Positions 1-7,176 are shown, counted from the stretch's first letter. The stretch: 7,176 bases of DNA from Escherichia coli (GCF_965641715.1 NZ_OZ282458.1), one strand, 5' to 3'. Translations and numbers: made by a program. Notes: generated by a model not told the origin, from the sequence alone.

Positions 1-285
1 TTACTTGAACGCTGTGAGGGTAAACAACTGGCGGTATGGATGCGGCGGGTCTGCCTGGGGGAGCCGGTTGCCCGTTCCGGGAAGCTGCCGACACTGGCAC
101 CGCCGTTACTGCGTCAGCTGGCCGCCATCGGGAATAACCTGAATCAGACGGCGAGGAAGGTGAACAGCGAGCAGTGGTCTTCCGGTGACCGGGTTCAGGT
201 GGTGGCCGCACTGATGGCCATCGAGAGAGAGTTGCGCAGCTTACGGCAGGTCGTCAGGGAACATGGAGCGCGGGATGATAGTTAA
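1..285 (+). CDS. mbeC: MobC/MbeC mobilization accessory protein, 5'-truncated by the window edge. The frame is open from position 1 and the C-terminal 81+ aa are present.
   Basis: Frame 1 is open from base 1 (LLERCEGKQLAVW...) into the listed ORF 40..285. The motif LLRQLAAIGNNLNQ is typical of the MobC/MbeC family of ColE1-type plasmids. It sits immediately upstream of, and overlaps, the relaxase gene, as in ColE1. Confidence 0.8.
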   Translation, partial: LLERCEGKQLAVWMRRVCLGEPVARSGKLPTLAPPLLRQLAAIGNNLNQTARKVNSEQWSSGDRVQVVAALMAIERELRSLRQVVREHGARDDS

Positions 286-1828
286 GTTTCATGCCAGGGG
301 AAAAGGCGGTGGCAGTGGTCCGGTTGATTACCTGCTGGGAAGGGAGCGTAACCGGGAAGGGGCAACGGTGCTTCAGGGTGATCCGGAAGAAGTCCGGGAA
401 CTCATCGATGCCACGCCATTTGCGAAGAAATACACGTCAGGTGTTCTGTCGTTCGCGGAGAAGGAGCTGCCGCCGGGAGGACGTGAAAAGGTGATGGCGA
501 GCTTTGAGCGTGTACTGATGCCCGGTCTCGAAAAGAATCAGTACAGCATCCTGTGGGTAGAGCACCAGGACAAGGGACGGCTTGAGCTGAATTTTGTCAT
601 TCCGAACATGGAGCTACAGACCGGAAAACGCCTCCAGCCGTACTACGACCGGGCAGACAGGCCGAGAATTGATGCCTGGCAGACGCTGGTGAATCACCAT
701 TACGGGCTGCATGACCCCAACGCCCCGGAGAACCGCCGGACGCTGACCCTTCCTGATAACCTGCCGGAAACGAAACAGGCGCTTGCAGAGAGCGTCACAC
801 GCGGGATAGACGCTCTTTATCATGTCGGGGAGATAAAAGGCCGTCAGGATGTGATTCAGGCGCTCACAGAGGCAGGGCTTGAAGTGGTCAGGGTGACGCG
901 AAGCAGTATCAGCATTGCAGACCCGAACGGTGGGAAGAATATCAGGCTGAAAGGAGCATTTTATGAGCAATCTTTTACAGACGGGCGCGGAGTTCGAGAA
1001 AAAGCTGAAAGAGAGAGCCGAATCTACAGAGACAATGCTGAACGACGAGTTCAGCAAGCTCGAAAAATCTGTAAGCAAGGCTGTGACATCAAACGAGACG
1101 AAAATCAAAGACGCTATAGCCCTGTTCACAGCTTCGACAGAGGAATCACTGAAAAAACACCGGGAAGGGGTGAAAGAGGCGATGATGCAGCACAGGAAGG
1201 ACGTGTTAAAGCTGGCAGGGAATACGGGCATGATGTTACTGGGGATGGTCATTTTCCTGTTTACCGTGAGTGGCGGGACGCTCTGGTATCTTGGCGGGAT
1301 GATACAGGCGAACCTGGAAGAAATCAGGATACAGGAAGAAACATTGCAGAAACTGAACGCGAAGACATGGGGCGTGGAGTTTGTGCAGGACGGGAGAAGG
1401 AAATTTCTGGTCATCCCGCAGGGGAAATCGGCAACGGTGATTCCCTATCAGGGGAAGGACTGGGTACAACTGACGGAGTGACACAGAGTGACGGAGCTGG
1501 AAAGACATTTGCTGAACGCCTTAGAGCAACTGCAACAGGACTATATGCAGCGGCTGAACGAATGGGAGAGCGCCTTCGTGGAATTGCAGAAAATGTTTTC
1601 GCTTACGCAACAGGACAACGCGATGCTGAACGAGCAGGTCATGCAGTTGAGTCAGCAGGTGCAGCACTTGAGCGAGCGGACAGAACGCTTGAGCCAGTTA
1701 TACAGCGAGAACAGGAGATAAGGGACGAACGGCTGATACAGGAGCGCGAACATGAGTTATCCCTGGAGCGTGAGCGCCAGCTGGAAATACAGGAACGGAC
1801 ACTGGATGGCCCTTCGCTGGGATGGTAA
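275..1828 (+). CDS. mbeA: MbeA/MobA relaxase (ColE1 MOB-P5/HEN family). The start is ATG 275 (MIVKFHARG...) or possibly the upstream ATG at 263.
   Basis: 521/517-aa ORF. The N-terminus MIVKFHARGKGGGSGPVDYLLGRERNREGATVLQG matches what I recall of the ColE1 MbeA N-terminus. It has an HHYGLHDP histidine motif and a charged repetitive C-terminal half. mbeB and mbeD are nested in an alternative frame, as in ColE1. Confidence 0.9.
   Translation: MIVKFHARGKGGGSGPVDYLLGRERNREGATVLQGDPEEVRELIDATPFAKKYTSGVLSFAEKELPPGGREKVMASFERVLMPGLEKNQYSILWVEHQDKGRLELNFVIPNMELQTGKRLQPYYDRADRPRIDAWQTLVNHHYGLHDPNAPENRRTLTLPDNLPETKQALAESVTRGIDALYHVGEIKGRQDVIQALTEAGLEVVRVTRSSISIADPNGGKNIRLKGAFYEQSFTDGRGVREKAERESRIYRDNAERRVQQARKICKQGCDIKRDENQRRYSPVHSFDRGITEKTPGRGERGDDAAQEGRVKAGREYGHDVTGDGHFPVYREWRDALVSWRDDTGEPGRNQDTGRNIAETEREDMGRGVCAGREKEISGHPAGEIGNGDSLSGEGLGTTDGVTQSDGAGKTFAERLRATATGLYAAAERMGERLRGIAENVFAYATGQRDAERAGHAVESAGAALERADRTLEPVIQREQEIRDERLIQEREHELSLERERQLEIQERTLDGPSLGW
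963..1481 (+). CDS. mbeB: MbeB/MobB mobilization protein, nested within mbeA in a different frame.
   Basis: 172-aa ORF entirely inside mbeA in another frame, the classic ColE1 arrangement. It has a coiled-coil-like N-terminus, a central hydrophobic segment (MMLLGMVIFLFTVSGGTLWYLGG), and an RBS-like GGAG upstream. Confidence 0.75.
   Translation: MSNLLQTGAEFEKKLKERAESTETMLNDEFSKLEKSVSKAVTSNETKIKDAIALFTASTEESLKKHREGVKEAMMQHRKDVLKLAGNTGMMLLGMVIFLFTVSGGTLWYLGGMIQANLEEIRIQEETLQKLNAKTWGVEFVQDGRRKFLVIPQGKSATVIPYQGKDWVQLTE
1488..1721 (+). CDS. mbeD: MbeD/MobD mobilization protein (GTG start), nested in the mbeA 3' region.
   Basis: 77-aa ORF starting GTG 1488 immediately after the mbeB stop, inside mbeA in an alternate frame. 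The Q/L-rich coiled-coil sequence and the position match ColE1 mbeD. Confidence 0.7.
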   Translation: MTELERHLLNALEQLQQDYMQRLNEWESAFVELQKMFSLTQQDNAMLNEQVMQLSQQVQHLSERTERLSQLYSENRR

Positions 1829-1949
1829 TCAGAGACAGGCTAAAATGTTGTCAGCGCGTTTCCGGTGCATTTTTTGGGATAATGGTTGGTTCGGGGGCAC
1901 CGGGAACGCGCTTCAGTCAGACCTTGCTGAAAACACAGGAACGCGTTAA
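1752..1949 (+). CDS. mbeE: MbeE-like small ORF overlapping the end of mbeA.
   Basis: 65-aa ORF beginning within the last 80 nt of mbeA. The position corresponds to the computationally defined mbeE of ColE1. There is no independent functional signature. Confidence 0.4.
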   Translation: MSYPWSVSASWKYRNGHWMALRWDGNQRQAKMLSARFRCIFWDNGWFGGTGNALQSDLAENTGTR

Positions 1950-2028
1950 AACGCATACGGGCGCGATTCTGGTGTGTCTTTTGTTGCTGTGTTTTGCCTC
2001 TATTGCCAGATCGCGCTCATTCCCCTGA
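1822..2028 (+). CDS. Hypothetical small protein with a hydrophobic C-terminal segment. Its ATG overlaps the mbeA stop (gATGGTAAtc).
   Basis: The start ATG 1822-1824 overlaps TGG-TAA, the last codon and stop of mbeA, giving a coupling-type overlap. The C-terminus AILVCLLLLCFASIA looks like a membrane helix. It competes with mbeE for the same DNA, so at most one of the two is likely real. Confidence 0.2.
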   Translation: MVIRDRLKCCQRVSGAFFGIMVGSGAPGTRFSQTLLKTQERVKTHTGAILVCLLLLCFASIARSRSFP

Positions 2029-2089
2029 ACTTCTGTTTTCCCGCTCCGGTCCCCGTCTTCTTCGCTTCCGAAAGCATGAAAAAAATCCG

Positions 2090-2280
2090 TTTCAGCAGTC
2101 TCTGGCTGGCAATTCCTGCGTGATTCACATGGCTGCATAGCTATGCATGTGGTTAAAATTTACCGGGTGCGATCGCGGCAGTTTTTCGGGTGGTTTGTTG
2201 CCATTTTTACCTGTCTGCTGCCGTGATCGCACCGAACGCGTTTCTGCGGTGCGGGCAACGGATGTTATGGTAAATACAAT
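2090..2280. other. cer: cer-like plasmid multimer resolution site (XerC/XerD core plus upstream accessory region with an ARG-box-like palindrome).
   Basis: The XerC-type arm GGTGCGGGCAA is at 2248-2258. A 6-bp central region CGGATG is at 2259-2264. The XerD arm TTATGGTAAAT at 2265-2275 is identical to the cer XerD arm. Upstream, GCCATTTTTACC...GCTGCCGTGATCGC..GAACGCGTTT resembles the cer accessory sequence. The palindrome TGCATAGCTATGCA at 2134-2147 lies about 107 bp upstream, where an ArgR box is expected. Confidence 0.75.
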
Positions 2281-2300
2281 ATGCAGCCAGTCTTAGAGAC

Positions 2301-2332: not shown

Positions 2333-2539
2333 TCAACCTTCAGCATCTAACTTGTCTATCGCTTTTTTATTGCGCCGATAGGTAGCCATTAGTTCACCAT
2401 CGCCTGATTGTAAGTCACGACCTGCTTGCTCAGCATAGGTATCGTTTACAGTCTTAGCGCCTTTTTTATAGGCCTTTTTAACATCATCAAATCCGGCTTG
2501 GATGACTTCTTTCGGCTTTTCTTGAGGTAATTTAGCCAT
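2333..2539 (-). CDS. Hypothetical small basic protein (68 aa), the second gene of a coupled two-gene operon.
   Basis: Its ATG (rc of 2537-2539) lies inside the overlap ATGGCTAA with the stop of the upstream 127-aa gene, which implies translational coupling. It is Lys-rich and hydrophilic. I recognise no family by eye. Confidence 0.5.
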   Translation of the reverse strand: MAKLPQEKPKEVIQAGFDDVKKAYKKGAKTVNDTYAEQAGRDLQSGDGELMATYRRNKKAIDKLDAEG

Positions 2540-2915
2540 GCTGTGAATCCTCTATAAGGTTGATTATTTTTCCAACAGATAAGACGGCATCTTCTGTGTC
2601 GCTGATTTTATGATTTATCCAACCGTCCTCTATCTTTAATTTGTTCACTACTCCTAATGTAAAAACAACCTTTTTTTCAGGAAAGAAAATTGCAAAGGTT
2701 CTACTTTTCTCTTTCCAATCAGAGGGCGGCGTCGAACGGAACGCTACATTCCTCGATTTAAGTATCGCTTTGATTTTACTAATTAATTCTTTTTTTTGTT
2801 TATTGCTGAGATTTTTGACGAACCCTTTGCTGAGATTGTCTGTGTAATCATCAAAAGAAATATCAACTGGTTTGTTTTTTTGTTTTTTATCAGATAGATG
2901 AACAATGTTTGACAC
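2532..2915 (-). CDS. Hypothetical Lys-rich protein (127 aa), GTG start, AT-rich foreign gene.
   Basis: GTG start at 2913-2915 (rc), preceded by AGGA 6 nt upstream. An in-frame stop lies 10 codons upstream, so no longer ORF is possible. The protein has no internal Met. Its stop overlaps the start of the 68-aa gene. Codon usage is about 30% GC, unlike the plasmid backbone. Confidence 0.5.
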   Translation of the reverse strand: MSNIVHLSDKKQKNKPVDISFDDYTDNLSKGFVKNLSNKQKKELISKIKAILKSRNVAFRSTPPSDWKEKSRTFAIFFPEKKVVFTLGVVNKLKIEDGWINHKISDTEDAVLSVGKIINLIEDSQHG

Positions 2916-3519: not shown

Positions 3520-4581
3520 TTACTTTATTTCATCAAACAGGTGAGATGCAGTATAATAAACGCTTTGATCAAAGCGTCTCTCTGGGCTTAATTTATTTTG
3601 CCCGCCATTTAAAATTATTTCTTTTAATACTGATGGTGGAAGGATGGGTTTTGTTCTTCTTGGGTGATCCATATAAGCTTTTGTTATTTTTCCGTTTAGC
3701 GAGAACTCTTTATCACTTTGATATCCAAAGTTCATCTCAGTATAAATTCTATTGATGTTTGTCTTGTTTTTGCTCGCAATTTCATACACCATTCTGGCGA
3801 GTCTGGCTGATGATCTCATTAGTCTGCTGGCAGATGAATTGTTATATGAGGATCTATCAATAAAGGTTCGACACAAAGCAAAATCACTCCAGATGAATAT
3901 GTCAAAGGCATTTTGATCTAATATTGGGCTCTTGCCTTTTGTTTTCCATAATGGTTGCATTAAAAAAGGTTTCTGGTAATCAAGAAAATTTTCTTGGAAA
4001 GTGTTTAGGCAATTTAATATATTTTCTTTCTTTGAAAGAACTTCAGTTTCATTCCCCCAGTGCTGTATGCTTTCGCATGTGGATTCAAATATTTTTCTTA
4101 TTTCATGGAATTTATCGCTGCAAGAGTGCATTATGCCAAGGGCACAATAAGAAGTGCTTGCAGGTCTTATTACAATCTCTGAACTCCATTCGCTCTCGTT
4201 TTCTTTATATGTCGTGCTATCTGGGAGTACGGTTAATTTTATTTCTAGTGCTTTTAAAAAACTATTGTTTCCTTTTATAACTAGATCTATTCCTTTTATG
4301 TCATCATAAGCATACTGTTGGTATGGTTCATATTTTTTCTCAAATTGAAATTCAAGATCACTATTTTTTAATGTTGTGTTAAAAACGAAGTCAAAAGATA
4401 CTTCTTTGGCATGCACTTTTAAATCCTTATCTAAATAAAGATAAATCGGATTCATTTTGTTGTCTCTCATATAACATGCTAGAGAGGTGGGAAAAGAACT
4501 GTTAAATTGGTTCTTTCCCCACAGATCGCTCTCTTTCCTGTTGGTGTTTTTTAAACCATAAAGAGATTCTATTTTGCTCAC
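3520..4581 (-). CDS. Candidate Type II restriction endonuclease (353 aa) with a PD-(D/E)xK-like motif, divergent from the C5-MTase gene. GTG start with a strong AGGAG RBS.
   Basis: The ORF has low GC like the MTase. It sits head-to-head with the MTase, 87 bp apart. GID(99)...LE(113)IK(115) fits D-x13-E-x-K. The GTG start is 6 nt after AGGAG, and an in-frame stop just upstream rules out a longer ORF. I cannot place it in a named REase family by eye. Confidence 0.55.
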   Translation of the reverse strand: MSKIESLYGLKNTNRKESDLWGKNQFNSSFPTSLACYMRDNKMNPIYLYLDKDLKVHAKEVSFDFVFNTTLKNSDLEFQFEKKYEPYQQYAYDDIKGIDLVIKGNNSFLKALEIKLTVLPDSTTYKENESEWSSEIVIRPASTSYCALGIMHSCSDKFHEIRKIFESTCESIQHWGNETEVLSKKENILNCLNTFQENFLDYQKPFLMQPLWKTKGKSPILDQNAFDIFIWSDFALCRTFIDRSSYNNSSASRLMRSSARLARMVYEIASKNKTNINRIYTEMNFGYQSDKEFSLNGKITKAYMDHPRRTKPILPPSVLKEIILNGGQNKLSPERRFDQSVYYTASHLFDEIK

Positions 4582-4592
4582 TTTTTGCTCCT

Positions 4593-4612
4593 GACGTCAA
4601 TTTATTGACGTC
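4593..4612. promoter_or_regulatory. Perfect 9-2-9 inverted repeat GACGTCAAT-TT-ATTGACGTC in the R/M divergent intergenic region. It is a candidate operator.
   Basis: It is exactly palindromic, checked base by base. It directly abuts the AGGAG RBS of the endonuclease gene at 4588-4592 (rc) and lies about 57 bp upstream of the MTase ATG. TTGACG within it is a -35-like hexamer. Confidence 0.4.
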
Positions 4613-4668
4613 TATGGTGTGTTTCTATATCATGATGTGGAGTGATATGATAATGAGTTTTTTATGTT

Positions 4669-5826
4669 ATGAGAATAATTGATCTTTTTAGTGGGTGTGG
4701 GGGGTTATCCCTAGGCTTTTTGAAGGGGGGGTTTGATGTTGTAGGTGCTTATGATTTCTGGGATCCTGCTATTGAATGTTACAGAGATAATTTTAGCCAT
4801 CCGATAAAAAAACTAGATTTGAGCAATGTTGATGATGTGGTGAGGGAGCTTAAAGATATAGACTTCGATATGATTATTGGAGGGCCTCCTTGCCAAGACT
4901 TCAGTCATGCAGGTTTAAGAATTGAAGGTGCTAGAGCTAACTTAACTCGCTCATTTTCAGAAATTATAAAAAGAATAAAGCCAAAGTGGTTTGTGATGGA
5001 AAATGTAGATCGGGCATTAAGAAGTGGTGCCTATTTAGAAGCTCGAGGAATCTTTAAAGAATCAGGGTATGGGTTAACAGAAATTGTTTTGGATGCCAGT
5101 AAGTGTGGTGTTCCGCAAAAAAGAAAAAGATTATTTGTAATTGGAAAGCTTGACGTGAGGGATGGTTTTATCCTTAACGAAGTGATGTGCGGGATATCGA
5201 AAGATAGTATGACAGTTAGAAATTATCTTGGTGATTCATTGGGGATTGAGTATTATTACAGACATCCGAGAAATTATAACAGAAGGGCTATTTTCTCTAT
5301 TGATGAACCTGCGCCAACAGTAAGAGGGGTTAATAGACCGATACCTGATGGATATTTAGGGCATGCAGGCGATCCTGTCAGTATTTCTGAGAATGTAAGG
5401 CCATTAACAACCTTTGAAAGAGCAAGATTGCAAACATTTCCTGAAGACTTTAAATTTAAAGGTGCAAAAACAAATTTGGAGCAAATGATAGGTAATGCTG
5501 TTCCGGTTGAGTTAGCAAAATATGTTGCGGTGACAATCATGGAGTATGAAAAAAAACAAGTAAAAGGTATTTATGATAAAGAAGGCTTTAGGGCGTGGTT
5601 GCTGAATGAAAAGAAACTAACAAAAAGAACCTCTAGCGATATTATATCTAGATGTTGCAGAGGTGTTTCATTTTTTGATTCAGAGGGGGTGGATTTTTAT
5701 AACTGTGAAATAGATGAAATTATTATGAAACTGGAAAGGCTTGAATCGTTTGTCAGGCTTGGGGTTAGCCTGAAGTCTCAGTTAAGAAGGGCTTTTAAAT
5801 TATATTACGAATATTGTCGAAGGTAA
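4669..5826 (+). CDS. DNA (cytosine-5)-methyltransferase, HaeIII-like short-TRD architecture plus a C-terminal extension of about 90 aa.
   Basis: Motif I is DLFSGCGGLSLGF. Motif IV is GGPPCQDFS. Motif VI is ENV. Motif VIII is QKRKRLFVIG. Motif IX is RPLTTFERARLQTFPEDF. Motif X is GNAVPVELAKYVA. They occur in canonical order. It is close to the M.HaeIII N-terminus as I recall it (FSGAGGLDLGFQKAGF / GGPPCQSWS). An additional 90 aa or so follow motif X. Confidence 0.92.
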   Translation: MRIIDLFSGCGGLSLGFLKGGFDVVGAYDFWDPAIECYRDNFSHPIKKLDLSNVDDVVRELKDIDFDMIIGGPPCQDFSHAGLRIEGARANLTRSFSEIIKRIKPKWFVMENVDRALRSGAYLEARGIFKESGYGLTEIVLDASKCGVPQKRKRLFVIGKLDVRDGFILNEVMCGISKDSMTVRNYLGDSLGIEYYYRHPRNYNRRAIFSIDEPAPTVRGVNRPIPDGYLGHAGDPVSISENVRPLTTFERARLQTFPEDFKFKGAKTNLEQMIGNAVPVELAKYVAVTIMEYEKKQVKGIYDKEGFRAWLLNEKKLTKRTSSDIISRCCRGVSFFDSEGVDFYNCEIDEIIMKLERLESFVRLGVSLKSQLRRAFKLYYEYCRR

Positions 5827-5875: not shown

Positions 5876-5902
5876 AAAGGATCCTCTTGTGATCCTTTTT
5901 TT
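5876..5902 (+). terminator. Rho-independent terminator-like hairpin (AAAGGATC / GATCCTTT stem, 7-nt loop, T7 tail). It is a conserved ColE1 element upstream of the RNAII promoter and would terminate MTase transcripts.
   Basis: The stem is at 5876-5883 and 5891-5898, followed by TTTTTTT ending at 5902. It is homologous to the pBR322 sequence aaaggatcttcttgagatccttttttt. Confidence 0.5.
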
Positions 5903-5915
5903 CTGCGCGTAATCT
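5887..5915 (+). promoter_or_regulatory. RNAII (primer) promoter: -35 TTGTGA at 5887-5892, -10 TAATCT at 5910-5915.
   Basis: It is homologous to the pBR322 RNAII promoter (TTGAGA-17bp-TAATCT) with the same 17-bp spacer TCCTTTTTTTCTGCGCG. Confidence 0.7.
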
Positions 5916-5926
5916 GCTGCCTGTAA

Positions 5927-6034
5927 ACAAAAAAACCACCGCTACCAACGGTGGTTTGTTTGCCGGAATCTAGAGCTACCAACTCTTTCTTCCGAAGGTA
6001 ACTGGCTTGGTGGAGCACAGATACCAAATACTGT
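5927..6034 (-). ncRNA. RNAI: RNAI antisense copy-number control RNA (108 nt).
   Basis: The rc of 5927-6034 begins ACAGTATTTGGTATCTG... and ends ...GGTGGTTTTTTTGTT, matching the ColE1 RNAI ends. Three stem-loops are preserved, with a few substitutions relative to pMB1. Confidence 0.85.
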
Positions 6035-6040
6035 CCTTCT

Positions 6041-6070
6041 AGTGTAGCCGCAGTTAGGCCACCACTTCAA
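6041..6070 (-). promoter_or_regulatory. RNAI promoter: -35 TTGAAG (rc of 6065-6070), -10 TACACT (rc of 6041-6046).
   Basis: It is homologous to the pBR322 RNAI promoter TTGAAGTGGTGGCCTAACTACGGCTACACT. Confidence 0.6.
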
Positions 6071-6449
6071 GAACTCTTAATATCTCAATCCACCTTGTCC
6101 AGTTACCAGTGGCTGCTGCCAGTGGCGCTTTGTCGTGTCTTACCGGGTTGGACTCAAGACGATAGTTACCGGATAAGGCGCAGCGGTCGGGCTGAACGGG
6201 GGGTTCGTGCACACAGCCCAGCTTGGAGCGAACGACCTACACCGAACTGAGATACCAACAGCGTGAGCTATGAGAAAGCGCCACGCTTCCCGAAGGGAGA
6301 AAGGCGGACAGGTATCCGGTAAGCGGCAGGGTCGGAACAGGAGAGCGCACGAGGGAGCTTCCAGGGGGAAACGCCTGGTATCTTTAAGTCCTGTCGGGTT
6401 TCGCCACCTCTGACTTGAGCGTCGATTTTTGTGATGCTCGTCAGGGGGG

Positions 6450-6485
6450 CGGAGCCTATGGAAAAACGCCAGCGGCGTGGCCTTC
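6450..6485 (+). other. oriV: ColE1-type origin of replication (RNase H processing and RNA-to-DNA switch region).
   Basis: It aligns to the pBR322 ori region ...gcctatggaaaaacgccagc.... The location is approximate, about ±15 bp. Confidence 0.6.
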
Positions 6486-6689
6486 TCTGGGTTCTTGTTT
6501 TTTGCTCACATGTTTCTTTTGGTGTTATCCCCTGATTCTGTGGATAACCGCATTACCGTCTTTGAGTGAGCTGATACCGCTCGCCGCAGCCGAACGACCG
6601 AGCGTAGCGAGTCAGTGAGCGAGGAAGCGGAAGAGCGTCGGAAGTTGCATTTTCTCCTTACACATCTGTGCGGCATTTCACACCCGGCA

Positions 6690-6800
6690 TGGCGCACTTT
6701 TCATACAATCTGCACTGATGCCGCATGGTTAAGCCAGTATACACTCCGCTATCGCTACGTGACTGGGTCAGGGCTTCGCCCCGACACCCGCAAGGTCAAC
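6690..6800 (-). other. oriT: bom/oriT region with the nic site CTGG|CTTA, between 6733 and 6734 on the minus strand.
   Basis: ccgcatggttaagccagtatacactccgctatcgctacgtgactgggtca is homologous to the pBR322 bom region. The rc gives ...GTATACTGG|CTTAACCATGCGG, the ColE1-family nick sequence. Confidence 0.65.
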
Positions 6801-6882
6801 GGCCTGACGCGCCCTGACGGGCTTGTCTGCTCCCGGCATCCGCTCACAGACAAGCTGTGACCGTCTCCGGGAGCTGTATGTG

Positions 6883-7074
6883 TCAGAGGTTTTCACCGTC
6901 ATCCCCGAAGCGTGCGAGGCAGCTGCGGTAAAGCTCATCGGCGTGGTCGTGAAGCGATTCACAGATGTCTGCCTGTTCATCCGCGTCCAGTTCGTTGAGC
7001 TTTTCCAGCAGCGTTAATGTCTGGCTTCTGATAAAGCGCGCCATGTTAAGGGCTGTTTTTTCCTGTTTAGTCAC
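6883..7074 (-). CDS. rop: Rop/Rom RNA-one modulator (63 aa, GTG start).
   Basis: The translation VTKQEKTALNMARFIRSQTLTLLEKLNELDADEQADICESLHDHADELYRSCLARFGDDGENL is identical to pBR322 Rop as I recall it. GTG at 7072-7074 (rc) is the known start. The longer 95-aa ORF is an artefact. Confidence 0.92.
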   Translation of the reverse strand: MTKQEKTALNMARFIRSQTLTLLEKLNELDADEQADICESLHDHADELYRSCLARFGDDGENL

Positions 7075-7176
7075 TGATGCCTCCGTGTAAGGGGGATTTC
7101 TGTTCATGGGGTAATGATACCGATGAAACGCGAGAGGATGCTCACGATACGGGTTACTGATGATGAACATGCACGG

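What the first reader, a model, noticed from the sequence alone, without database searches (positions are those of the whole stretch)
4593..4612. Perfect 20-bp palindrome GACGTCAATTTATTGACGTC abutting the R-gene RBS in the R/M divergent promoter region
Exact 9-bp arms with a 2-bp centre are a hallmark of a dimeric-regulator operator. The site immediately flanks the AGGAG RBS of the endonuclease gene and contains a TTGACG -35-like element facing the MTase gene. There is no controller (C) protein gene in the window. Candidate binders are therefore the MTase itself (through its extra C-terminal domain), one of the two small upstream proteins, or a host factor. A 16-codon uORF at 4632-4682 (MMWSDMIMSFLCYENN) overlaps the MTase start and might add translational control.
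Basis: seen in the sequence. Interest (0 to 1): 0.55.

Follow-up and report, generated by a model that had tools for sequence, protein, structure and literature searches.

The report
Self-control switch of a restriction-modification system
The 20-bp palindrome is most likely the operator through which the plasmid's DNA methyltransferase shuts off its own promoter, using a small, unannotated DNA-binding domain at its C-terminus, and the operator is made of two copies of the sequence that this restriction-modification system itself probably methylates and cuts.

Summary
The palindrome GACGTCAAT-tt-ATTGACGTC is present at 4593-4612. A repeat of this size is not rare by chance, so comparison with relatives carries the argument.

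It consists of two GACGTC hexamers 14 bp apart. The flanking genes are a BsaHI/HgiDI/HindVP-type endonuclease and a C5 methyltransferase. The characterised members of that family recognise GRCGYC, so both hexamers are probably the system's own target sites.

The element GRCGTCAA-N4-TTGACGYC recurs in 46 distinct versions across many phyla. It always overlaps the core promoter of the methyltransferase (M) gene, whatever the orientation of the endonuclease (R) gene.

It co-occurs almost perfectly (23/1/1/55, Fisher p = 8e-18) with a ~75-aa domain. That domain is the window methyltransferase's C-terminal extension. In most relatives it is a separate small gene just downstream of M.

The domain has no Pfam family. 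It models with high confidence as a helical bundle resembling the core-binding domain of tyrosine recombinases. It is homologous (hhalign 99.2%) to the N-terminus of M1.LlaJI, a methyltransferase that reviews list as experimentally shown to repress its own gene. The LlaJI promoter on pNP40 carries the same element.

Verdict: a real operator of the LlaJI type, here in a new architecture. The two small upstream proteins and the uORF are not.

The parts
4593..4612 (.). Operator: GACGTCAA-TTTA-TTGACGTC, an instance of the conserved element GRCGTCAA-N4-TTGACGYC.
   Evidence: for the window. There are 46 distinct versions in related loci, always at the M promoter. The same element lies in the LlaJI promoter of pNP40. 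It is invariant in the E. coli plasmid compared base by base; all 39 E. coli plasmid matches are at least 99% identical over 4440-4760.
4593..4598 (.). Left GACGTC hexamer, a GRCGYC site and therefore the inferred cognate methylation and cleavage site of this R-M system.
   Evidence: GRCGYC specificity is inferred from family membership.
4607..4612 (.). Right GACGTC hexamer, also a GRCGYC site. It overlaps the -35 element of the M promoter.
4605..4633 (+). Predicted M promoter: -35 TTGACG (4605-4610), 17-nt spacer, -10 TATCAT (4628-4633).
   Evidence: 10/12 match. The TTGACG to -10 spacing of 16-17 nt recurs in most relatives.
4669..5826 (+). M gene: C5 cytosine methyltransferase of 385 aa. 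The Pfam DNA_methylase match covers residues 1-290, with no N-terminal extension.
5578..5823 (+). C-terminal regulatory domain of M (residues ~304-385): helical, resembling the core-binding domain of tyrosine recombinases. Proposed operator binder.
3520..4581 (-). R gene: HindVP/BsaHI-family restriction endonuclease of 353 aa, GTG start, with the WGKNQF, EIK (ExK) and SPERRFD motifs.
   Evidence: Pfam PF09519, E 6.8e-102. Motifs as described in PMC2413257.
4588..4592 (-). R ribosome-binding site AGGAG, abutting the operator.
   Evidence: Read from the sequence. In the divergent relatives the left site lies about 9-50 nt upstream of the R start in most loci.
4647..4675 (-). Candidate R promoter facing the M promoter: -35 TTCTCA (4675-4670), 17-nt spacer, -10 TATCAT (4652-4647). 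Inferred only.
   Evidence: 9/12 match. The block 4645-4662 is identical in the Morganella relative. The geometry leaves no room for an R promoter to the left of the operator.

Best explanation
The palindrome is the operator of an autoregulatory loop.

Proposed mechanism:
1. The M promoter (TTGACG-17-TATCAT) has its -35 hexamer inside the right arm of the palindrome.
2. The methyltransferase carries a C-terminal ~80-residue helical DNA-binding domain. Two copies of it bind the two arms (GRCGTCAA / TTGACGYC) and occlude the promoter, so M limits its own synthesis.
3. The R gene's ribosome-binding site touches the left arm, so R must be transcribed from a promoter on the far side, probably one facing the M promoter at the start of the M gene.
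4. Repression of the M promoter should therefore free the R promoter, as in Ecl18kI. This would delay R expression until M has accumulated.
5. Each arm contains the system's own probable target, GRCGYC, with m5C expected on the central C. The operator would then be methylated by the same enzyme, and its methylation state probably tunes binding of the regulator, of RNA polymerase, or of both, as reported for LlaJI and CfrBI.

What is shown: the anatomy, the conservation, the co-occurrence, the fold, and the homology to the M1.LlaJI N-terminus and its promoter element.

What is inferred: binding, repression, the location of the R promoter, and any role of methylation.
For: (1) Two GACGTC sites lie 14 bp apart, and they are the only two in the window.

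(2) R belongs to Pfam RE_HindVP (E 6.8e-102) and carries the BsaHI-family motifs. The characterised members (BsaHI, HgiDI, HgiGI) recognise GRCGYC, and M.BsaHI methylates the central C (PMC2413257).

(3) Of 80 loci fetched through the R protein plus the window and one plasmid relative, 24 carry GRCGTCAA-N4-TTGACGYC. It is always directly upstream of M: 15 of 19 divergent loci, 4 of 5 convergent loci, and 5 R>M loci with a gap between the genes.

(4) Element and domain co-occur 23/1/1/55, Fisher p = 8e-18. The one element-only locus is cut by a contig end. The one domain-only locus has a 48-aa remnant.

(5) The domain is fused to the C-terminus of M (as in the window), fused to the N-terminus of M (LlaJI type), or is a stand-alone gene of about 80 aa downstream of or overlapping M. 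The element accompanies it into systems with unrelated methyltransferases.

(6) The element overlaps core promoter elements in both geometries seen. Either its right arm is the -35 (17 nt to a -10), or its centre lies at the -10 position with a TTGACA 17 nt upstream.

(8) The profile matches M1.LlaJI residues 1-76 (hhalign 99.2%, E 1.2e-19). The pNP40 LlaJI promoter reads GGCGTCAAattcTTGACGCC-17-TAGAAT. Reviews list M1.LlaJI among methyltransferases experimentally shown to repress their own genes, and say that the recognition sites in its promoter control transcription (PMC3978073; PMC3695355; PMC11779793).

(9) All 82 half-sites in the 41 distinct HindVP-associated elements fit GRCGYC. Variation occurs only at the degenerate R/Y positions, and 5 of the 41 are asymmetric.
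Against: - No binding or expression data exist for this system. Everything functional is inferred.
- GRCGYC specificity comes from family membership and was not measured.
- Co-occurrence was not corrected for shared ancestry.
- Foldseek gives no significant match (E >= 1.2), and small helical bundles can match by chance. The domain has no Pfam hit to Phage_int_SAM families.
- Some domain-bearing loci have no recognisable element (L134/L135, L116/L118/L133), only a half-site (L137), or an everted arrangement (L107/L123).
- In L125/L126 the operator is GTCGTCAA...TTGACGAC, which is not GRCGYC, although one partner methyltransferase is 57% identical to the window's. Cognate sites are therefore not obligatory for the module.
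- The candidate R promoter is only a 9/12 consensus match.
- The primary LlaJI regulation paper (O'Driscoll 2005) is not in the held library, so its details come from secondary citations.
Confidence: 0.75

Rival explanations
1. Pure promoter-methylation switch of the CfrBI type. The two cognate sites over the -35 element are methylated by M. The m5C lowers RNA polymerase binding at the M promoter and frees a competing R promoter. No dedicated DNA-binding regulator is involved, and the C-terminal domain does something else.
For: Two GRCGYC sites overlap the -35 TTGACG. All 82 HindVP-associated half-sites stay within GRCGYC while varying at the R/Y positions. There is precedent in CfrBI, and in AhdI and LlaDII (PMC12707154; bioRxiv 10.64898/2025.12.04.692298).
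Against: This does not explain the near-perfect co-occurrence with the ~75-aa domain. It does not explain conservation of the left arm, of the flanking AA/TT, or of the exact N4 spacing, none of which RNA polymerase needs. It does not explain the non-cognate operator GTCGTC/GACGAC in L125/L126. The homologous M1.LlaJI is reported to act as a repressor. This rival could still be a second layer on top of the best explanation.
Confidence: 0.15
2. RNA hairpin in the 5' leader of the R mRNA. The palindrome folds next to the R ribosome-binding site and controls R translation or mRNA stability.
For: The R leader folds into an 8-bp stem with a 4-nt loop, -11.2 kcal/mol, z = -3.0. The hairpin abuts AGGAG. 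R transcripts must cross the element (geometry).
Against: The element follows M, not R. It lies upstream of M in convergent and R>M arrangements, where it is not in any R leader. Five of 41 elements are asymmetric (GGCGTC...GACGTC or GACGTC...GACGCC), which puts an A.C mismatch into one transcript while keeping GRCGYC. In LlaJI-type operons the restriction genes lie downstream of both methyltransferase genes, not next to the element.
Confidence: 0.04
3. Chance palindrome, or a site for a host factor or for one of the two small upstream proteins.
For: A 9-bp-arm inverted repeat arises in 19% of simulated windows. The TGACGTCA core resembles generic palindromic operators.
Against: The element is conserved at 16 of 20 positions across many phyla while the neighbouring intergenic sequence is unalignable. 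The hosts are too diverse for one host factor. The 127-aa and 68-aa ORFs are not annotated on the Morganella plasmid and occur without the R-M genes in Cronobacter.
Confidence: 0.03

Closest known systems
LlaJI system of Lactococcus lactis plasmid pNP40: M1.LlaJI autorepression (O'Driscoll et al. 2005, Mol Microbiol 57:1532, known here only through citing papers)
   Same: The regulatory domain is homologous (hhalign 99.2%, E 1.2e-19). The operator has the same core, GGCGTCAAattcTTGACGCC, with TTGACG as the -35 and 17 nt to the -10. In both cases the operator arms contain the system's own recognition sequence: GCGTC/GACGC for LlaJI and (inferred) GRCGYC here. The regulator is physically part of a C5 methyltransferase.
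   Different: In M1.LlaJI the domain is N-terminal; here it is C-terminal, and in most relatives it is a separate small protein. LlaJI has two methyltransferases plus a McrBC-like two-subunit nuclease in one operon. Here there is a simple pair of one M and one PD-(D/E)xK R, transcribed divergently, so the operator may also gate R through promoter competition. I found no published description of the domain family, its fold, or its spread beyond LlaJI.
SsoII / Ecl18kI regulatory methyltransferases
   Same: A C5 methyltransferase carries an extra DNA-binding domain that binds a single palindrome between divergent R and M genes and represses P_M. In Ecl18kI, P_R faces P_M from inside the start of the M gene and is relieved when P_M is blocked (PMC2760811). 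The window has the same geometry by prediction.
   Different: There the domain is an N-terminal helix-turn-helix and the operator (AGGACAAATTGTCCT) differs from the methylation site. Here the domain is C-terminal, is not an HTH family member by any test run, and the operator contains the probable methylation sites.
CfrBI promoter-methylation switch
   Same: Divergent R and M genes, with a cognate site inside the overlapping promoter region. Methylation lowers M expression and raises R expression.
   Different: CfrBI has one site and no dedicated binding domain. Here there are two sites at a fixed 14-bp spacing that co-occur with a specific protein domain.
Classical controller (C) proteins such as C.PvuII, C.AhdI, C.Esp1396I, C.Kpn2I
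   Same: A small protein of about 80-100 aa is encoded with an R-M system and binds a palindromic operator at the R-M promoters. The stand-alone relatives of the window domain look functionally like this.
   Different: C proteins are Xre-type helix-turn-helix proteins, usually encoded upstream of R, that bind duplicated C-boxes. This domain has no HTH or Pfam match, has a different predicted fold, sits downstream of or fused to M, and has a single palindrome.
Core-binding (N-terminal 'SAM-like') domain of tyrosine recombinases, and the recombinase-like repressors MrpR (SPbeta) and SroF (phi3T)
   Different: There is no catalytic domain and no significant sequence similarity (Pfam; PDB sequences). 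The role proposed here is transcriptional. The similarity is at fold level only.

Membership tests
M1.LlaJI-type regulatory module (domain plus operator) | A domain homologous to the M1.LlaJI N-terminal region is present in, or next to, a C5 methyltransferase. | tested here: met
   hhalign of the 77-sequence profile against M1.LlaJI residues 1-113: probability 99.2%, E 1.2e-19, 76 columns. The HMM matches window M residues ~306-382.
M1.LlaJI-type regulatory module (domain plus operator) | The operator (G-N-CGTCAA N4 TTGACG-N-C) overlaps the core promoter of the methyltransferase operon. | tested here: met
   Window 4593-4612, with TTGACG-17-TATCAT. pNP40: GGCGTCAAattcTTGACGCC-17-TAGAAT. 46 distinct elements in relatives.
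M1.LlaJI-type regulatory module (domain plus operator) | The operator arms contain the system's own recognition sequence. | tested here: inconclusive
   The arms are GACGTC, which fits GRCGYC, and all 82 related half-sites fit. The specificity of this particular enzyme pair is inferred from family membership and was not measured.
M1.LlaJI-type regulatory module (domain plus operator) | The methyltransferase binds the operator and represses its own promoter. | not testable with these tools
   This needs EMSA or footprinting and reporter assays.
BsaHI / HgiDI / HindVP restriction-modification family (GRCGYC) | The R protein has the RE_HindVP fold family and the motifs WGKNQF, ExK and SPERRFD. 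| tested here: met
   PF09519, E 6.8e-102, residues 21-344. WGKNQF, EIK and SPERRFD are all present in the translation. The motifs are defined in PMC2413257.
BsaHI / HgiDI / HindVP restriction-modification family (GRCGYC) | Cleavage and methylation at GRCGYC. | not testable with these tools
   This needs a digest or methylome sequencing.
SsoII/Ecl18kI-type regulatory methyltransferase | An N-terminal helix-turn-helix domain precedes the methyltransferase core. | tested here: not met
   The Pfam DNA_methylase match starts at residue 1 and motif I (FSGCGG) lies at residues 6-11. No HTH hit.
SsoII/Ecl18kI-type regulatory methyltransferase | R and M promoters face each other, with the R promoter at the start of the M gene. 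| tested here: inconclusive
   A consensus scan gives TTCTCA-17-TATCAT on the minus strand at 4675-4647. No transcript mapping exists.
Classical C-protein controlled R-M system | An Xre-type HTH controller protein and a duplicated C-box. | tested here: not met
   No such ORF or Pfam hit in the window. The element is a single palindrome.
CfrBI-type methylation switch | A cognate site lies within the M promoter's -35 region. | tested here: met
   GACGTC 4607-4612 overlaps TTGACG 4605-4610, given the inferred specificity.
CfrBI-type methylation switch | Regulation needs only methylation, with no dedicated DNA-binding regulator. | tested here: inconclusive
   The strict co-occurrence with a DNA-binding-type domain argues against this. 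An effect of methylation cannot be tested here.
Tyrosine-recombinase core-binding domain | Four- to five-helix core-binding fold. | tested here: met
Tyrosine-recombinase core-binding domain | Sequence membership (Pfam Phage_int_SAM families) and an attached catalytic domain. | tested here: not met
   No Pfam hit even at E <= 10. No catalytic domain: the protein ends at residue 385.

The most novel reading that the evidence does not exclude
The ~75-aa domain, with its stand-alone homologues, is a distinct and so far unannotated class of R-M controller, derived from or convergent with the recombinase core-binding fold. Its operator is built from two cognate methylation sites. The controller would then read the m5C state of its own operator and use it as a proxy for how far the genome has been methylated. 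It would switch off M, and in divergent systems release R, only once protection is complete.
Probability: 0.4. Interest if true: 0.75.

Novelty: new variant of a known kind. Interest (0 to 1): 0.6.

Why it matters
Restriction-modification systems must delay the nuclease until the host genome is protected. Four solutions are described in the reviews read here: HTH controller proteins, methyltransferases with N-terminal HTH domains, promoter methylation, and antisense RNA.

This locus links the single studied case of M1.LlaJI to a much wider module. The module comprises 757 clusters at 50% identity, has no Pfam family, and most members are anonymous 80-aa ORFs, some mislabelled as methyltransferases.

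The module has a defined operator. The domain can be fused at either end of a C5 methyltransferase or stand alone. It accompanies at least three kinds of restriction machinery.

It gives annotators a name for these ORFs. It gives experimenters a compact E. coli plasmid system, present in 39 of 5,426 complete E. coli genomes, for testing whether a repressor can sense methylation of its own operator.

Tried and rejected
- Small upstream proteins (127 aa, 68 aa) as binders: rejected. They have no family hits. They are present without the R-M genes in Cronobacter and are not annotated on the Morganella plasmid, which keeps the element.
- uORF at 4632-4682: rejected. Its ATG overlaps the predicted -10 hexamer and it is not conserved.
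- Leftward promoter using the left-arm TTGACG: rejected. The best -10 would be CAAAAT inside the R ORF, and in relatives the R start lies too close to the left arm.
- Frameshifted R as a common state in E. coli: rejected. The 1-bp deletion seen in pEC34B is absent from a 6715-bp plasmid whose R is annotated intact. The only difference in 4440-4760 is the synonymous A4707G.
- Searches that found nothing for the domain: Pfam, PDB sequence search, and a single-sequence word-index search (only near-identical hits).
- The search for related loci with the broad domain alignments failed for lack of a conserved stretch. A six-sequence alignment worked.
- Literature searches for a core-binding-domain regulator in R-M systems found nothing. 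The O'Driscoll 2005 paper is not held.
- L083 turned out to be a degraded remnant next to a tRNA-like sequence and was not used.

Full report
**Observation**

Window 4593-4612 reads GACGTCAATTTATTGACGTC. It has two perfectly complementary 9-nt arms around a TT centre. It abuts CTCCT at 4588-4592, which is the AGGAG ribosome-binding site of the leftward R gene (GTG start at 4581). Its right arm holds TTGACG (4605-4610), followed after 17 nt by TATCAT (4628-4633). That is a 10/12 match to a sigma-70 promoter facing the M gene.

A repeat of this size is not rare. It appears in 19% of Markov-simulated windows, and the window has another one at 3560-3577 inside the R coding sequence. The case for function must therefore rest on other evidence.

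**What the palindrome is made of**

It consists of two GACGTC hexamers whose starts are 14 bp apart. These are the only GACGTC in 7176 bp, and two of only three GRCGYC sites.

- The gene to the left (3520-4581, minus strand) is a RE_HindVP endonuclease (PF09519, E 6.8e-102). It carries the WGKNQF, ExK (EIK) and SPERRFD motifs that Neely and Roberts describe as specific to BsaHI homologues. [quoted passage not shown]
- The gene to the right (4669-5826) is a C5 methyltransferase whose catalytic core starts at residue 1 and ends near residue 290.

By inference from family membership, the palindrome is two copies of the system's own target site.

**Comparative evidence, anchored on R**

I fetched 80 loci encoding relatives of the R protein (40-81% identity, many phyla). 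I located R and M in each. With the window and one plasmid relative, the gene orders were 45 R>M, 19 divergent, 11 M>R and 5 convergent.

The element GRCGTCAA-N4-TTGACGYC is present in the following groups:
- 15 of the 19 divergent loci;
- 4 of the 5 convergent loci;
- 5 R>M loci that have a gap between the genes.

In every case it lies directly upstream of M. The element therefore follows M and not R.

The surrounding intergenic DNA is unalignable between phyla. Within the element, 16 of 20 positions are fixed. The N4 length never changes. The outer variable positions are exactly the degenerate R and Y of GRCGYC.

**The co-occurring domain**

tblastn showed that the last ~80 residues of the window M align, in many loci, to a separate reading frame just downstream of M. 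An HMM built from these segments finds the domain in 23 of the 24 loci that have the element. The exception, L018, is cut by the contig end. Among the 56 loci without the element, the HMM finds the domain in only one, L026, as a 48-aa remnant. Fisher's exact test gives p = 8e-18.

The domain is fused to the C-terminus of M in the window and seven other loci. Elsewhere it is a stand-alone ORF of about 80 aa, often overlapping the end of M.

Properties of the domain:
- It has no Pfam family and no PDB sequence relative.
- A profile search of 1.84 billion representative proteins finds 757 clusters at E <= 0.001. Nearly all of the top 150 are proteins of 75-110 aa.
- Some sources label these small proteins 'DNA (cytosine-5)-methyltransferase 1'.

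**Fold**

AlphaFold2 with a 77-sequence alignment gives a confident model (pLDDT 92.1, pTM 0.81) of four long helices and one short one.

Foldseek ranks Cre and XerA first as well, but with non-significant E-values. I therefore treat this as a fold-level resemblance to a DNA-binding module that works in pairs on inverted repeats. I do not treat it as proven homology.

**Comparative evidence, anchored on the domain**

A metagenome scan with the domain gave 51 more loci. Most repeat the pattern R | element | M | domain. Together with the first set they give 46 distinct elements.

Two promoter geometries occur, and in both a bound protein would exclude RNA polymerase:
- The right arm is the -35, with 16-17 nt to a good -10. 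The window is of this type.
- The element lies 26-43 nt from the M start codon. In L121 and L122, the two such loci examined, a TTGACA sits 17 nt upstream of its centre, which puts the centre at the -10 position.

**Other contexts and the link to LlaJI**

In L124, L129 and L112 the domain is fused to, or precedes, an unrelated C5 methyltransferase. That gene is followed by a second C5 methyltransferase and an AAA_5 protein.

- The L124 fusion protein is 66.7% identical to a methyltransferase of Lactococcus plasmid pNP40. In pNP40 this gene sits in the four-gene LlaJI operon, so it is M1.LlaJI.
- The pNP40 promoter reads ...GGCGTCAAattcTTGACGCC-17 nt-TAGAAT. M1.LlaJI begins MIDLINFKVWLTNNKDYSEKTVSNIVSRFKRV...SQLKQAAKLYSEF.
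- This N-terminus matches the domain profile at 99.2% probability, E 1.2e-19.

[quoted passage not shown] They state that the LlaJI recognition sites (GACGC/GCGTC) in its promoter control transcription (PMC3978073; PMC3695355; PMC11779793; PMC1459862). The primary paper, O'Driscoll et al. 2005, is not held.

**Do the cognate sites matter?**

For:
- All 82 half-sites of the 41 distinct HindVP-associated elements are GRCGTC (combinations GG..CC 22, GA..TC 14, and 5 asymmetric).
- In other contexts, 3 of 8 half-sites are GTCGTC (L125/L126 and L129; L127 was left out of this count because its contig is too short to show whether an R gene is present). Fisher p = 5e-4, uncorrected for phylogeny.
- In LlaJI the arms contain LlaJI's own sites.

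Against:
- L125/L126 has a perfectly good palindrome plus promoter (GTCGTCAAtctaTTGACGAC-17-TATAAT) that is not GRCGYC. Yet one of its methyltransferases is 57% identical to the window's.

I conclude that the core CGTCAA-N4-TTGACG is what the domain recognises. The cognate-site overlay is probably, but not certainly, a functional methylation-sensing layer.

**Mechanism proposed for the window**

1. P_M (4605-4633) is strong and initially unrepressed.
2. M accumulates. Its C-terminal domain, probably as two copies, occupies the operator and blocks P_M.
3. R cannot have a promoter to the left of the operator, because its ribosome-binding site touches it. R must therefore be transcribed across the operator from the right.
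4. The best candidate R promoter is TTCTCA-17-TATCAT on the minus strand (4675-4647). Its -10 block is identical in the 77%-identical Morganella plasmid, while the DNA between it and the operator has diverged.
5. This is the face-to-face arrangement demonstrated for Ecl18kI, where blocking P_M relieves P_R (PMC2760811).

Binding, repression, the R promoter and the methylation effect are all inferences.

**Rivals**

- A pure CfrBI-type methylation switch does not explain the domain co-occurrence, the conserved left arm, or the fixed spacing.
- An R-leader hairpin (-11.2 kcal/mol) is contradicted by the element's independence from R and by the asymmetric variants.
- Chance, host factors and the two small upstream ORFs are contradicted by the breadth of conservation and by plasmids that keep the element without those ORFs.
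- The uORF is not supported.

**Prevalence**

The locus is on small plasmids in 39 of 5,426 complete E. coli genomes, with every match at least 99% identical. In the one 6715-bp plasmid compared base by base, the palindrome is unchanged and the only difference in 4440-4760 is the synonymous A4707G.

**Verdict**

This is a real regulatory element. It is the operator of a LlaJI-type methyltransferase autoregulation module, found here in a new architecture: a C-terminal fusion in a simple divergent GRCGYC-family type II system. It belongs to a wider family of small controller-like proteins that is still unannotated.

Noticed in passing
window 3560-3577: A second perfect palindrome, ACGCTTTGA|TCAAAGCGT (18 bp, no spacer), lies inside the R coding sequence. 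It encodes the R-F-D-Q-S part of the conserved SPERRFD motif. It is probably a by-product of coding.
   Followed up: partly
window 4492-4495, compared with L002 (pEC34B, NC_019078): The pEC34B record lacks one A of the AAAA run, which frameshifts R near codon 30. Its R is therefore annotated as a shorter 316-aa protein. A 6715-bp E. coli plasmid (L139) has R intact, so this is specific to that record (a mutation or a sequencing error).
   Followed up: yes
window 2333-2915 (minus strand): The 127-aa and 68-aa ORFs have no Pfam or NCBIfam match. They occur at 91% DNA identity on a Cronobacter plasmid without the R-M genes (H24). Their function is unknown and appears unrelated to the R-M module.
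   Followed up: partly
L107 2120-2160; L123 1350-1390: Two R>M>domain loci lack the 20-bp element. They share CTTGACCTTATGAACAGGCGTCAATA just upstream of M, with the half-sites in everted order (TTGACc N9 GgCGTCAA). This may be an alternative operator geometry.
   Followed up: no
L016-L021 and L087-L101, about 35-50 nt right of the element: The termite-gut spirochaete-like group shares a conserved box, TATGTATA(G/A/C)CA, 13-15 nt downstream of the M -10 hexamer. On the other strand it reads TGnTATACA, which could be the -10 of the R promoter facing P_M.
   Followed up: no
L134 3305-3482; L116 560-722; L118; L133: Some domain homologues sit next to other C5 methyltransferases. In L134/L135 the domain gene is divergent from two methyltransferase genes. 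In L116/L118/L133 the order is M, a 489-aa protein, then the domain. None has a CGTCAA-N4-TTGACG element nearby, so these members may use different operators.
   Followed up: partly
L125 3410-7219 (L126 is identical): The operator GTCGTCAAtctaTTGACGAC-17-TATAAT precedes a stand-alone domain gene, two C5 methyltransferase genes and an MmeI-like enzyme. The half-sites GTCGTC/GACGAC are not GRCGYC. Whether they match the specificity of this system is unknown.
   Followed up: partly
L084-L086: A mobile element with a serine recombinase, TnpV and MobA carries, in order: R(HindVP) | element | M - domain - Vsr, followed by Thoeris genes (ThsA_Macro, ThsB_TIR). This is a small defence island.
   Followed up: no
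window 4487-4522: An inverted repeat with 13-nt arms, 92% complementary (GTGGGAAAAGAAC / GTTCTTTCCCCAC), lies inside the R coding region that encodes the WGKNQFNSSFP motif. The repeat is weaker in the Morganella relative, so it is probably incidental.
   Followed up: partly
window 1-2300 and 5900-7176: The backbone looks like a ColE1-type mobilisable plasmid. A near-identical plasmid is annotated with MobC relaxosome and Rop/Rom proteins. The R-M locus is found only on plasmids, in 39 of 5,426 complete E. coli genomes.
   Followed up: partly
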